A stretch of 64,000 bases of DNA from a virus. Shown piece after piece: positions 16,701 through 17,329 of this stretch. Under the pieces are notes generated by a model. It worked only from the letters and a program-made list of their open reading frames with translations, searched no databases and was not told the DNA's origin. Both the position numbers and the translations under genes were made by a program. Within the stretch, counting starts at the first letter, position 1, and every line of letters starts with the position of its first letter. Where the stretch lies: IMG/VR virus record IMGVR_UViG_3300032144_000004, positions 1 through 64,000 of that record. One strand, given 5' to 3'.

Positions 16701-16841
16701 ACGTCCTCAGATGCGAAAGGCACTTCATCTCCCGCTACAAACCTATGGGAGATTAGCTCAGTGGTAGAGCGCCGGCCGACAGGCTGGAGGTCGTTGGTTC
16801 GACTCCAACATTTTTGTCTTTCACCTACTCGCTGAGGACGT
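16701..16841 (+). ncRNA. Y-RNA-like module 1 with an embedded tRNA-like cloverleaf (acceptor looped off, anticodon loop reduced to 6 nt)
   Basis: Closing helix ACGTCCTCAG / CTGAGGACGT (10 bp). Internal loop ATGC / ACCTACTCG. Helix 2 GAAAGGC / GTCTTTC. Inside: ATCTCCC-13 nt loop-GGGAGAT TA GCTC AGTGGTA GAGC G CCGGCC GACA GGCTGG AGGTC GTTGG TTCGACT CCAAC. Confidence 0.65.
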
Positions 16842-16853
16842 TGTTTCTTTTCT

Positions 16854-16987
16854 GTCGCCAGATGCCGAGGGCTTTACATCCGCTTTTAACGGGGTGGTCG
16901 CAGGTTCGAGTCCTGCCGTTCTGGGAAACCAGGACGTAGCTCAGTTGGTAGAGCGCCTAAGTTGAGTCCTCATTACTCGCTGGCGAC
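16854..16987 (+). ncRNA. Y-RNA-like module 2 with a tRNA-like cloverleaf permuted at position 26/27 and a Lys-type CUUUUAA loop
   Basis: Closing helix GTCGCCAG / CTGGCGAC. Internal loop ATGCC / ATTACTCG. Helix 2 GAGGGCT / AGTCCTC. Inside: ATCCG CTTTTAA CGGGG TGGTC GCAGG TTCGAGT CCTGC CGTTCTG-G GAAA C-CAGGACG TA GCTC AGTTGGTA GAGC G. Confidence 0.65.
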
Positions 16988-16996
16988 GTTTTTCAT

Positions 16997-17097
16997 GTCC
17001 ACAGATGCACATCGGCGCTCCTTCTCGCAAAGAACACGTTCGAACCGTGTAACCAGCCCGGTCGGCGGGCATGCGTCGTTACCCAATCGCTGTGGAC
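16997..17097 (+). ncRNA. Y-RNA-like module 3 with only a T-arm-like hairpin and a short capped helix
   Basis: Closing helix GTCCACAG / CTGTGGAC. ATGC follows the 5' strand. Helix 2 CGGCGC / GCGTCG. Inside: ACACG TTCGAAC CGTGT and CCCG GTCGG CGGG. Confidence 0.55.
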
Positions 17098-17120
17098 GCT
17101 GTTTCTGAAGTGTCACTCGC

Positions 17121-17191
17121 ACAACTCCGCCAGAATGGTTCTGGTTGGGTCGTGCCGCCATCAGCATACTGGGGTGCCACTTCGGAGTTGT
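17121..17191 (+). ncRNA. Stem-closed hairpin between modules 3 and 4 (no tRNA-like features)
   Basis: ACAACTCCG (17121-29) pairs with CGGAGTTGT (17183-91). Inner hairpin CCAGAA TGG TTCTGG. Lacks the ATGC / CUCG loop arrangement of the other modules. Confidence 0.35.
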
Positions 17192-17193
17192 TG

Positions 17194-17329
17194 GGTCACG
17201 GATGCTAGACGCAGTACATCTAGGAAGCTTGAGGTCGTTGGTTTGAATCCAACCGCCCCGACCTACGCGGGGCGTAGCGCAGTCTGACAGCGCGCAAGCT
17301 TTGATCTGTGTCGCCACCTCGCCGTGACC
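17194..17329 (+). ncRNA. Y-RNA-like module 4, YrlA-type: the anticodon-stem equivalent continues into the long bulged stem
   Basis: Closing helix GGTCACGG / CCGTGACC. ATGCTA / GCCACCTCG loop. GACGCAG / CTGTGTC, ATC / GAT and GAAGCTTG / CAAGCTTT helices. Then AGGTC GTTGG TTTGAAT CCAAC CGCCCCG-ACCTACG-CGGGGCG TA GCGC AGTCTGACA GCGC G. Followed by CTGTTTTTG. Confidence 0.65.

What the first reader, a model, noticed from the sequence alone, without database searches (positions are those of the whole stretch)
16727..17294. Three tRNA-like cloverleaves, each apparently a different circular permutation with the acceptor stem looped off
All three elements have a looped-off acceptor, so none has a free CCA end. 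They appear to differ in where the closing stem enters the cloverleaf.

- Module 1: acceptor-3' strand ATCTCCC, a 13-nt loop, acceptor-5' strand GGGAGAT, then TA, a canonical D arm (GCTC AGTGGTA GAGC), an anticodon stem capped by a 6-nt loop (CCGGC-CGACAG-GCTGG, no U33), AGGTC and the T arm GTTGG TTCGACT CCAAC. The outer stem enters at the 65/66 junction.
- Module 2: anticodon arm, TGGTC, T arm GCAGG TTCGAGT CCTGC, CGTTCTG(G)-GAAA-(C)CAGGACG, TA, the D arm, then G26. The break is at 26/27.
- Module 4: GCTTG AGGTC T-arm CGCCCCG-ACCTACG-CGGGGCG TA D-arm G CAAGC. The anticodon stem forms between the two strands and continues into the long bulged stem. This matches what I recall for YrlA (no free CCA; the stem corresponding to the anticodon stem leads to the Ro-binding helix).

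All spacings are canonical: 2 nt at positions 8-9, a 5-nt variable loop and a 7-nt T loop.

Module 4 also lacks the GG in its D loop (AGTCTGACA) and has TTTGAAT in place of TTCGAAT. That would be a coordinated loss of the G19-C56 elbow pair.
Basis: seen in the sequence. Interest (0 to 1): 0.8.

Follow-up and report, generated by a model that had tools for sequence, protein, structure and literature searches.

The report
Phage Ro60 operon of tRNA-mimic RNAs
Just downstream of a phage gene for the RNA-binding ring protein Ro60 lies a tandem array of small "Y RNAs". Three of them carry a tRNA-shaped domain rewired at three different points: two are known YrlA-type mimics and one has a wiring not described in the papers I could read.

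Summary
Window 16619-17342 (+) lies directly after an rsr/Ro60 gene (14933-16618). It holds six structured RNAs: M0, M1, M2, M3, X and M4. M1, M2 and M4 each fold into D arm, T arm and a closed, looped-off acceptor hairpin inside a Ro-type outer stem. Across four related phage contigs 95% of predicted pairs hold, against about 40% when partners are slid, and 40 pairs show compensatory changes.

M2 (69.0 bits) and M4 (39.9 bits) match Rfam YrlA, a known family already described as resembling circularly permuted tRNA. M1 differs. It keeps the natural order D-anticodon arm-variable-T, but its acceptor 3' strand sits upstream, so the outer stem enters at position 65/66. I found this wiring only in this phage clade and in Myrna-like mycobacteriophages.

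In about half of 156 YrlA-type elements, the hairpin called "V" in the literature completes an exactly 5-bp split anticodon stem with a 7-nt loop carrying U33 and R37.

The "lost" elbow pair in M4 is a compensatory G19:C56 to A19:U56 swap.

Function is inferred, not shown: tethering Ro60 to tRNA-binding effectors, possibly after RNase P opens the acceptor loop.

The parts
14933..16618 (+). rsr gene: Ro60 ortholog (561 aa; TROVE/HEAT ring plus vWA domain)
   Evidence: Pfam vWA_Ro60 at 7e-18, TROVE weak. PDB 2NVO, D. radiodurans Rsr, at 3.5e-19 over the full length. Homologs are named 60 kDa SS-A/Ro.
16622..16693 (+). M0: short Y-RNA-like hairpin (GCGGGCAGAUGC...CUCGCUGCCCG) with no tRNA-like domain
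   Evidence: Fold z -3.0. Present only in the window and L166 (alignment A2).
16700..16842 (+). M1: Y-RNA module with a five-way junction. Outer stem 16700-16710/16832-16842 and 16717-16724/16815-16822. Closed acceptor hairpin 16727-16753. D arm 16756-16770. Anticodon (AC) arm of 6 bp plus GACA tetraloop 16772-16787. Variable AGGTC. T arm 16793-16809.
   Evidence: MFE -57.5 kcal/mol, z -4.24. Rfam tRNA 41.8 bits with a mismatched acceptor. ARAGORN calls it tRNA-???. Compensatory changes occur in the acceptor, AC, T and outer stems.
16854..16987 (+). M2: YrlA-type module. Outer stems. Anticodon-like hairpin CCG-CUUUUAA-CGG 16880-16892. GG 16893-16894 pairs with CC 16956-16957. Variable UGGUC. 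T arm 16900-16916. Acceptor of 8 bp plus GAAA 16917-16936. D arm 16939-16954.
   Evidence: Rfam YrlA 69.0 bits, equal to the gathering score, E 3e-15. Fold z -3.24. Covariation. Split 5-bp anticodon stem. Re-circularised form is called tRNA-Lys(ttt).
16997..17097 (+). M3: Y-RNA-like module with only a T-arm-like hairpin (ACACG-TTCGAAC-CGTGT, 17034-17050) and a second hairpin. No D arm.
   Evidence: Fold and covariation of the outer stem and T-like arm. Resembles the M. smegmatis YrlB description, 'contains a possible T-arm' (PMC4201824).
17105..17185 (+). X: long conserved hairpin without the GAUGC motif. Internal loop CGCCAUCAGCAUACUGG is invariant in five relatives.
   Evidence: Fold z -3.6 in the window and -4.7 in L167. 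Alignment A2. No Rfam match.
17194..17329 (+). M4: YrlA-type module without an anticodon hairpin. Outer stems. 7-bp anticodon (AC) stem 17225-17231/17295-17301. AGGTC. T arm 17237-17253 with U56. Acceptor of 7 bp with loop ACCUACG 17254-17274. D arm 17277-17293 with G18-A19.
   Evidence: Rfam YrlA 39.9 bits, below the gathering score. Fold z -2.37. Covariation. U56 with A19 is unique among 92 YrlA-type elements.
17353..17634 (+). Conserved 93-aa ORF with a lysine-rich tail immediately after the array. Its RBS GAAAGGA follows M4. Function unknown.
   Evidence: ORF list. Same-size gene in the same place in L166, L167 and L168. No Pfam hit.

Best explanation
This is a phage-encoded Ro60 (Rsr) operon whose 3' untranslated part is a polycistronic array of Y RNAs.

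Each unit has an outer stem formed by its 5' and 3' ends. The stem carries a conserved asymmetric motif (5' C-R-GAUGC, 3' CUCGC) and is the presumed Rsr-binding site. Each unit also has a distal effector module.

In three units the effector module is a tRNA mimic with the tertiary-contact nucleotides of an L-shaped tRNA. It is wired as a circular permutation, so the acceptor is a closed hairpin and the Ro-binding stem leaves the cloverleaf elsewhere.
- M1: the stem leaves between the T stem and the acceptor 3' strand (65/66).
- M2: the stem leaves inside the 5' strand of the anticodon stem, keeping a complete anticodon-like hairpin.
- M4: the stem leaves in place of the anticodon loop.

M2 and M4 belong to the YrlA kind. 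M1 is a new wiring of the same idea.

**Inferred mechanism.** Rsr binds the outer stems. The tRNA-like modules recruit host tRNA-binding or RNA-decay proteins (for example PNPase, modification enzymes, RNase P, CCA-adding enzyme), so one Ro60 ring can be assembled into several different RNPs during infection. M1 and M4 have 7-bp acceptors with single-stranded loops beginning G-C and A-CC. They are likely to be opened by RNase P and completed to CCA, as shown for M. smegmatis YrlA. M2 has 8 bp plus a GAAA tetraloop and probably stays closed.

**Shown here:** sequence, folds, covariation, family matches and linkage to rsr.
**Inferred:** Rsr binding, processing and effector identity.
For: - **Linkage to rsr.** The array lies on the same strand, 4-720 nt after the stop codon.
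- **Family matches.** YrlA covariance model hits for M2 (69.0 bits) and M4 (39.9 bits), and a tRNA model hit for M1.
- **Folds.** MFE folds recover all helices, with z down to -4.24.
- **Covariation in close relatives.** 153 pairs are 95.4% paired in 4 relatives. 40 pairs carry double changes, 0 of 500 shuffles reach that, and slid controls give about 40%.
- **M1 structure across two phage clades.** 96.8% of cells pair, and 5 of 7 acceptor-hairpin pairs are compensatory.
- **Same array in relatives.** L166, L167 and L001 carry it (Rsr 81-88% identical). An analogous array sits in L098 and L094 (Rsr 41-42%).
- **Tertiary nucleotides.** U8, A14, G15:C48, G18, T54, U55 and A58 are present in all three modules. 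The M4 G19:C56 to A19:U56 double change is unique among 92 elements.
- **Split anticodon arm.** 37 of 82 and 42 of 74 YrlA-type elements have it, against 2.4 in shuffles. 29 and 37 of these carry U33/R37.
[quoted passage not shown] YrlA crystal structure and the 'circularly permuted tRNA' description (bioRxiv 10.1101/312249). Phage Ro60 binds phage Y-like RNAs and host PNPase (PMC12135203).
Against: - No expression, end-mapping or Rsr-binding data exist for this locus.
- The 5' motif is C-R-GAUGC rather than the published GNCGAAN0-1G.
- M4 scores below the Rfam gathering threshold. M2 sits exactly on it and was not listed by the default gathering scan.
- The M1 wiring rests on 4 closely related contigs plus 3 Myrna-like phages. 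In the latter the element is about 36 kb from the Ro gene, inside a tRNA array, so a link between the M1 wiring and Ro60 is not general.
- The A8 alignment was fitted to the model, which favours the structure.
- No promoter-like site was found.
Confidence: 0.8

Rival explanations
1. These are true circularly permuted (or two-piece) tRNA genes. The transcripts are opened at the acceptor loop by RNase P and CCA-adding enzyme, and the other ends are perhaps joined by an RNA ligase such as RtcB. The products are functional or aminoacylatable tRNAs used by the phage.
For: - Re-circularised M2 is a complete tRNA-Lys(UUU)-like cloverleaf by ARAGORN.
- M1 and M4 have 7-bp acceptors. The M4 loop begins A-CC in all five relatives. 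The Myrna and Phabba elements encode G-CCA after the acceptor 3' strand.
- M. smegmatis YrlA is cleaved by RNase P and CCA-added (PMC4201824).
- Permuted pre-tRNAs exist in algae and archaea (cited in 10.1101/312249).
Against: - M1 has a GNRA tetraloop and M4 has no anticodon loop at all.
- The M2 acceptor is 8 bp capped by GAAA.
- Anticodon-like loops differ between close relatives (CUUUUAA, UUUGUAA, AUUGUAA). In Myrna, Phabba and ScoobyDoobyDoo the loops are 6, 7 and 6 nt, so no decoding identity is conserved.
- No bacterial splicing endonuclease for this route is known.
- The outer stems carry the Ro-type motif and sit next to rsr.
Confidence: 0.07
2. The tRNA-like modules act mainly as decoys or sensors for host tRNA-targeting defences (anticodon nucleases, tRNA-cleaving toxins) or for tRNA-modifying enzymes. 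Rsr only stabilises them.
For: - Exact anticodon-arm geometry with U33/R37 and varied, real-looking anticodon loops in about half of YrlA-type elements.
- The setting is a phage genome that also carries its own tRNAs.
- rsr/YrlA lie in RNA-repair operons induced by damaged tRNAs in Salmonella (PMC7790460).
Against: - Nothing here tests cleavage or binding.
- M1 and M4 lack anticodon-like loops.
- The hairpin stem is interrupted by the outer stem, which may prevent recognition.
- The same feature occurs in bacterial chromosomal YrlAs, not only in phages.
Confidence: 0.1
3. M1 is just a decayed tRNA gene (or the junction of two decayed tandem tRNA genes, or an attP remnant) that happens to lie in the array. 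Its upstream 'acceptor' hairpin is coincidental.
For: - Rfam tRNA 41.8 bits, and ARAGORN reports a tRNA-like gene with an abnormal loop.
- Databases annotate the Myrna-type element as tRNA-OTHER or tRNA-Ser.
Against: - The acceptor-5' strand pairs perfectly upstream and poorly downstream.
- Compensatory changes: A-U to C-G and U-A to G-C within the clade, and 5 of 7 pairs between clades.
- The outer stem with the GAUGC/CUCGC motif encloses it and also covaries.
- Fold z -4.24.
- attP copies keep the tRNA 3' part, not nucleotides 1-65.
Confidence: 0.03

Closest known systems
YrlA (Y RNA-like A; Rfam RF02553), the Rsr/Ro60-bound tRNA-mimic Y RNAs of bacteria and phages (Chen et al. 2014, PMC4201824; crystal structure 6CU1, bioRxiv 10.1101/312249)
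   Same: - Encoded next to rsr on the same strand.
- Outer stem formed by the 5' and 3' ends.
- Module order is T arm, closed acceptor hairpin, UA, D arm, with tRNA tertiary nucleotides.
- Reported in 22 phages.
- M2 reaches the family threshold, and M4 aligns over the full model.
   Different: - M1 does not have this order at all.
- M4 is below threshold and carries A19/U56.
- The 5' motif here is CRGAUGC.
- There are five or six units in one array, against two reported per species.
- The hairpin that the papers call V/variable loop fits an anticodon arm here.
D. radiodurans Yrn1
   Same: According to PMC4201824 it has natural 5'-to-3' order (D-like, anticodon-like arm, T arm), and its anticodon-like loop has 6 nt. 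M1 is similar on both counts.
   Different: In the published model the stem between the D-like and T elements is the only extra arm, and the Ro-binding stem takes the acceptor position. M1 has a full canonical D arm plus a separate closed 7-bp acceptor hairpin, giving a five-way junction. No sequence model was available to test homology.
M. smegmatis YrlA (RNase P-cleaved, CCA-added)
   Same: A 7-bp closed acceptor whose loop can be cut at the tRNA +1 position. The M1 and M4 acceptors are also 7 bp, with discriminator plus C or CC.
   Different: Processing here is untested. M1 would yield a two-piece RNA in which the acceptor 3' strand is attached to the outer-stem 5' strand rather than to the T arm.
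Circularly permuted tRNA genes of Cyanidioschyzon merolae and some archaea
   Same: The 3' part is encoded upstream of the 5' part, and the acceptor is initially a closed loop.
   Different: Those are matured into working tRNAs through a bulge-helix-bulge splicing endonuclease and circular intermediates. No such motif, enzyme or conserved anticodon is present here.
Myrnavirus 'tRNA-OTHER' genes (Myrna gene 161, ScoobyDoobyDoo gene 159, Phabba tRNA-Ser)
   Same: Same wiring as M1: upstream acceptor 3' strand, loop, acceptor 5' strand, D, AC, V, T, and an enclosing stem. 78% identical to M1 over 80 nt.
   Different: They lie in tRNA arrays about 36 kb from the Ro gene. They encode G-CCA in the loop (Myrna and Phabba). 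The AC loop is 6-7 nt rather than a tetraloop. They have no GAUGC/CUCGC motif.

Membership tests
YrlA (RF02553) | Covariance-model score at or above the Rfam gathering score (69 bits) | tested here: inconclusive
   M2 scores 69.0 bits, exactly at threshold. It was listed in the E-value scan but not in the default gathering scan. M4 scores 39.9 bits, below threshold. M1 has no YrlA hit.
YrlA (RF02553) | Encoded within about 4 kb of rsr/Ro60 on the same strand | tested here: met
   The array starts 4 nt after the rsr stop codon on the same strand.
YrlA (RF02553) | Module order: T arm, closed acceptor-like hairpin, 2 nt, D arm, with the Ro-binding stem leaving through the anticodon-stem position | tested here: met
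   Met for M2 and M4. Not met for M1, which has the order acceptor hairpin, D, AC, V, T.
YrlA (RF02553) | Conserved tRNA tertiary nucleotides (U8, A14, R15:Y48, G18G19, T54-psi55-C56, A58) | tested here: met
   All are present in M1 and M2. M4 has A19 and U56 in place of G19 and C56, a pair-preserving double change.
YrlA / bacterial Y RNA | 5' motif GNCGAAN0-1G in the outer stem (PMC4201824) | tested here: inconclusive
   The window has C-[AG]-GAUGC in all five motif-bearing units. The relative L168 and most other loci have CGAAUGC. This is a one-base variant whose binding is untested.
YrlA / bacterial Y RNA | Bound and stabilised by Rsr | not testable with these tools
   Needs immunoprecipitation or EMSA.
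tRNA (RF00005) | Acceptor stem formed by the 5' and 3' ends, with a free 3' end | tested here: not met
   M1 scores 41.8 bits, but its acceptor columns are mismatched. The acceptor 5' strand pairs with the upstream strand, with covariation.
tRNA (RF00005) | 7-nt anticodon loop with U33 | tested here: not met
   M1 has 6 bp plus a GNRA tetraloop, and ARAGORN calls it tRNA-???. M4 has no loop. M2 has CUUUUAA, but on a split stem.
Yrn1-type Y RNA (D. radiodurans) | Natural order D-like, AC, T, with the Ro-binding stem in the acceptor position | tested here: not met
   M1 shares the order but has its own closed acceptor hairpin. Element L003 5735-5870 fits the Yrn1-like wiring better. No Yrn1 model was available.
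Permuted tRNA genes (algal/archaeal) | Bulge-helix-bulge splice motif and maturation to a decoding tRNA with a conserved anticodon | tested here: not met
   Anticodon-like loops are absent (M1, M4) or not conserved among close relatives (M2). Maturation itself is not testable here.

The most novel reading that the evidence does not exclude
Phage and bacterial Ro60-associated Y RNAs are a toolkit of circular permutations cut from tandem tRNA dimers. Many present a geometrically exact anticodon arm (here a tRNA-Lys(UUU)-like loop), and some (M1, M4) are opened by RNase P and CCA-completed into two-piece, possibly chargeable tRNA mimics held on a Ro60 ring. These RNPs would act as decoys, sensors or repair platforms for host anticodon nucleases and other tRNA-targeting defences during infection. 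The M1 wiring, shared with 'tRNA-OTHER' genes in mycobacteriophage tRNA arrays, would be a separate, unrecognised class of phage tRNA mimic.
Probability: 0.15. Interest if true: 0.85.

Novelty: new variant of a known kind. Interest (0 to 1): 0.6.

Why it matters
The function of the tRNA-like domain of bacterial Y RNAs is an open question. The published view is that an unknown tRNA-binding factor recognises the elbow.

This locus packs three differently permuted tRNA mimics behind one phage Ro60 gene, which helps in three ways.
- The elbow (D/T loops, including a compensated 19:56 pair) is the constant part. The acceptor end, the anticodon end and the exit point of the Ro-binding stem are interchangeable.
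- About half of YrlA-type RNAs keep an anticodon arm of exact tRNA dimensions. The papers I could read label it a variable arm and state that YrlA lacks an anticodon loop. This points to anticodon-side partners such as modification enzymes and anticodon nucleases.
- It gives concrete, testable substrates for RNase P and CCA processing.

It also flags mis-annotated 'tRNA-OTHER' genes in mycobacteriophages as the same wiring as M1.

Tried and rejected
- **Myrna blastn hit.** I first took it for an ordinary tRNA. Re-reading the sequence showed the M1 wiring.
- **First regex scans.** They missed the window's own M1 because of a greedy D-arm pattern and generous G-U scoring. This was fixed.
- **Very tolerant descriptor.** It gave 391 mostly spurious candidates and was abandoned.
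- **CM R1 search.** Built from four M1 sequences, it mostly hit ordinary tRNAs. All 28 top non-clade hits were checked with ARAGORN. 27 are normal tRNAs, and only L098 is unusual.
- **L098 4452-4531.** I considered it an independent M1-type instance. Its acceptor 5' strand can pair upstream or downstream about equally well, and RNAfold does not recover the cloverleaf. It is left as ambiguous.
- **My first helix for element X (AACUCCG/CGGAGUU).** It showed no covariation. The MFE and L167 support a different long hairpin.
- **blastn of re-circularised M2 against E. coli genomes.** It did not give a clean tRNA-Lys assignment. The tRNA-Lys label therefore rests only on the loop (ARAGORN) and on my recollection of E. 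coli tRNA-Lys, which is a lead and not a result.
- **Promoter and terminator scan.** It gave nothing useful.
- **Two review papers (PMC10870794, PMC6047535).** They were not held, so I could not check whether the anticodon-arm reading or the M1 wiring has been noted there.
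Full report
**What is there**

The finding lies in the 734-nt gap between a 561-aa ORF (14933-16618, +) and a 93-aa ORF (17353-17634, +). The large ORF is a Ro60/Rsr ortholog. Pfam vWA_Ro60 scores 7e-18, with a weak TROVE hit. It matches D. radiodurans Rsr (PDB 2NVO) at 3.5e-19 over its full length, as well as the Thermus phage Ro60 and Xenopus/human Ro60. Thousands of homologs are named 60 kDa SS-A/Ro.

The window looks like a phage. It has a RecT-like annealing protein, a replication initiation protein and scattered tRNAs, and its closest relative is an IMG/VR viral contig.

**The array**

The gap is a head-to-tail array of structured RNAs:
- M0, 16622-16693
- M1, 16700-16842
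- M2, 16854-16987
- M3, 16997-17097
- X, 17105-17185
- M4, 17194-17329

Every unit except X is closed by an outer stem whose 5' strand ends in C-R-GAUGC and whose 3' strand begins CUCGC. Each unit is followed by a U-rich spacer. The same array follows rsr in L166, L167 and L001 (Rsr 88, 82 and 81% identical). A rearranged version occurs in L168 (57%).

**Checking the observation**

- Unconstrained RNAfold recovers the D arm, T arm and closed acceptor hairpin in M1, M2 and M4. Z-scores are -4.24 for the complete M1, -3.24 for M2 and -2.37 for M4.
- Rfam gives tRNA 41.8 bits for M1, with the acceptor columns flagged as non-pairs. It gives YrlA 69.0 bits (the gathering score, E 3e-15) for M2 and YrlA 39.9 bits (E 8e-7) for M4.
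- ARAGORN calls M1 'tRNA-???' with a 2-nt anticodon.
- I wrote the structure of M1, M2, M3, X and M4 onto an alignment of the four close relatives. 95.4% of 607 cells pair, against 38-44% when the 3' partners are slid by 1-3 columns. Forty of 153 pairs have changes on both sides, and none of 500 shuffles reaches the observed values.
- In M1, the acceptor hairpin has two compensatory pairs (A-U to C-G, U-A to G-C). The anticodon arm has two, the T arm one and the outer stems four.
Re-circularised M2 is called tRNA-Lys(ttt) by ARAGORN, and re-circularised M4 (with an invented loop) is called a tRNA. The native M2 and M4 are not detected. M1 stays 'tRNA-???' because of its loop.

**What M2 and M4 are**

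They are YrlA-type Y RNAs. Chen et al. (PMC4201824) defined YrlA as Rsr-associated RNAs encoded next to rsr. Their distal module is T arm, closed acceptor-like stem-loop and D arm, with the Ro-binding stem leaving through the anticodon-stem position. They found them in 254 bacteria and 22 phages. [quoted passage not shown] The general idea in the finding is therefore already known, and M2 and M4 are new members of that kind.

**The M2 'anticodon arm'**

The published papers call the stem-loop upstream of the T arm 'V' (variable arm or loop) and state that YrlA lacks an anticodon loop. I tested this on every YrlA-type element I could extract from about 250 rsr loci.
- In 37 of 82 distinct elements from phage and metagenome loci, and in 42 of 74 from 80 bacterial genomes, three features occur together. 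The first is 1-3 base pairs between the nucleotides just after the D arm (27 onward) and those just before the variable region (up to 43). The second is 4-2 base pairs of the hairpin, so that the two together make exactly five pairs. The third is a 7-nt loop followed by a 4-5-nt variable region.
- Shuffled controls give 2.4 +/- 1.5 such elements, with a maximum of 7.
- Of those elements, 29 and 37 have U at loop position 2 and a purine at position 6 (U33/R37). Controls give 0.3 +/- 0.6.
- The loops look like real anticodon loops: CUCAUAA, CUGAUAA, CUGUUAA, CUUUUAA and others.
- In the window: G26, C27, C28, then the break, then CCG-CUUUUAA-CGG, G42, G43, UGGUC, then the T arm.

The break lies 1-3 nt further in than 26/27. 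As far as the papers I could read go, this anticodon-arm reading is new. I could not read the 2018 and 2020 reviews.

In the window's M4 this hairpin is absent. A 7-bp stem (AAGCUUG/CAAGCUU) runs on into the outer stem. Its orthologs in L167 and L168 still have a small hairpin. M2 and M4 therefore do differ in where the chain leaves, within one family.

**What M1 is**

M1 has a different wiring. The order is: outer stem 5' strand, 4-nt linker, acceptor 3' strand, 13-nt loop, acceptor 5' strand, UA, canonical D arm, G26, a 6-bp arm capped by a GNRA tetraloop, AGGUC, canonical T arm, 5-nt linker, outer stem 3' strand.
- The tetraloop is GACA, GCAA, GUGA or GAAA in the four relatives, and the closing pair covaries.
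- The downstream AUUUUUG used by the tRNA model does not compensate when the acceptor 5' strand changes. The upstream strand does.

Censuses with regular-expression descriptors, a covariance model built from M1, and ARAGORN found this wiring only in the window's own clade, among about 170 phage and metagenome rsr loci. They found none in 80 bacterial loci.

It does recur in Myrna-like mycobacteriophages (Myrna gene 161, Phabba, ScoobyDoobyDoo gene 159).
- The element is annotated tRNA-OTHER, Sup or Ser. It is 78% identical to M1 over 80 nt and sits in a tRNA array about 36 kb from the phage's Ro gene.
- It has an enclosing stem and an anticodon-like loop of 6, 7 and 6 nt with differing sequences.
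- In Myrna and Phabba, G-CCA follows the acceptor 3' strand.
- When the two clades are aligned to the M1 model, 96.8% of cells pair and 5 of 7 acceptor-hairpin pairs are compensatory. That alignment was fitted to the model.

The nearest published relative is D. radiodurans Yrn1. Per PMC4201824 it has the natural order and a 6-nt anticodon-like loop, but it has no full D arm and no separate closed acceptor.

**The elbow pair in M4**

The window and L166 have the T loop UUUGAAU and the D loop AGUCUGACA. The orthologs in L167, L001 and L168 have UUCGAAU or UUCAAAU with ...UGG... in the D loop. Among 92 YrlA-type elements, these are the only two with U56, and both have G18-A19. The change is therefore G19:C56 to A19:U56. 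It is a pair-preserving double substitution arising from one evolutionary event, which argues for the tertiary elbow rather than for its loss.

**How it probably works (inferred)**

By analogy with characterised systems, Rsr binds the outer stems, and the distal modules recruit other proteins. In D. radiodurans, Yrn1 tethers Rsr to PNPase. S. Typhimurium YrlA is modified by TruB and DusA. A Thermus phage Ro60 binds two phage Y-like RNAs and host PNPase (PMC4201824; 10.1101/312249; PMC12135203). An array of five or six different units would let one phage Ro60 form several RNPs.

M. smegmatis YrlA has a 7-bp acceptor. It is cut by RNase P in the acceptor loop and CCA-completed in vivo.
- M1 has a 7-bp acceptor, and its loop begins G-C.
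- M4 has a 7-bp acceptor, and its loop begins A-CC in four relatives and G-CC in L168.
- Both are plausible substrates.
- M2 has 8 bp plus a GAAA tetraloop, and the eighth pair covaries, so it is probably not a substrate.

All three wirings are what one gets by cutting different windows out of a tandem tRNA dimer. This extends the dimeric-tRNA origin model cited in 10.1101/312249.

**Rivals**

- True permuted tRNA genes are unlikely. M1 and M4 have no anticodon loop, and the anticodon-like loops are not conserved among close relatives.
- A decoy or sensor role against tRNA-targeting defences is compatible with the data but untested.
- A decayed tRNA with a chance hairpin is excluded by the covariation and by the enclosing motif-bearing stem.

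**Verdict**

The locus is a phage rsr-Y RNA operon.
- M2 and M4 are new members of the known YrlA family.
- M1 is a new variant.
- The split anticodon arm is a general feature of YrlA-type RNAs that seems to have been read differently in the literature.
- Function and processing remain inferred.

Noticed in passing
L005 2975-3115 (Mycobacterium phage Myrna gene 161); L170 296-446 (ScoobyDoobyDoo gene 159); L171 296-446 (Phabba): Genes annotated tRNA-OTHER, Sup or Ser have the M1 wiring. The acceptor 3' strand (followed by G-CCA in Myrna and Phabba) lies upstream of the acceptor 5' strand. The AC loop is 6, 7 and 6 nt with different sequences, and there is an enclosing stem AUGGGC/GCCCAU. They sit in tRNA arrays about 36 kb from the Ro gene.
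   Followed up: partly
L098 4425-4565 versus L094 2262-2400: Two closely related viral contigs share the same outer-stem scaffold and the same T arm. One carries a YrlA-order module (T, acceptor, D). The other carries a natural-order module (acceptor 5' strand, D, GCAA-capped arm, V, T) with an upstream A-CCA-containing stretch. The topology is swapped inside one scaffold, and the L098 acceptor pairing is ambiguous.
   Followed up: partly
window 17105-17185 (element X): A long conserved hairpin between M3 and M4 lacks the GAUGC/CUCGC motif. Its internal loop CGCCAUCAGCAUACUGG is invariant in five relatives. Fold z is -3.6 (window) and -4.7 (L167), and there is no Rfam match. It may correspond to the 'long hairpin' Y RNAs (YrlB/Yrn2 type).
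   Followed up: partly
window 16622-16693 (M0) and 16997-17097 (M3): Two further Y-RNA-like units have the same outer-stem motif. M0 is a simple hairpin, present only in the window and L166. M3 has a T-arm-like hairpin (ACACG-UUCGAAC-CGUGU) but no D arm.
   Followed up: partly
window 17353-17634: A conserved 93-aa ORF with a lysine-rich C-terminus directly follows the array in the window, L166 and L167 (88 aa in L168). It has no Pfam hit. It could be an RNA-binding partner.
   Followed up: no
L003 4700-6000: In a 224-kb viral contig, Y-RNA-like units and ordinary tRNAs are interleaved downstream of rsr. One unit (about 5735-5870) has a natural-order tRNA-like domain whose acceptor continues into the outer stem, which is a Yrn1-like wiring. 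ARAGORN calls it tRNA-??? with a 4-nt 'anticodon'.
   Followed up: no
L004 about 4645-4720, L134 about 4145-4220, L088 about 5519-5580: Three YrlA-type elements have the T loop UGCAA (G at position 55) together with D loops lacking GG. This may be a co-change of the G18:psi55 contact.
   Followed up: no
window 1872-1948 (-), 26914-26986 (-), 48397-48470 (+), 61833-61905 (+): Four ordinary tRNA genes (Asn, Arg, Gln, Gly) are scattered through the phage-like window.
   Followed up: no
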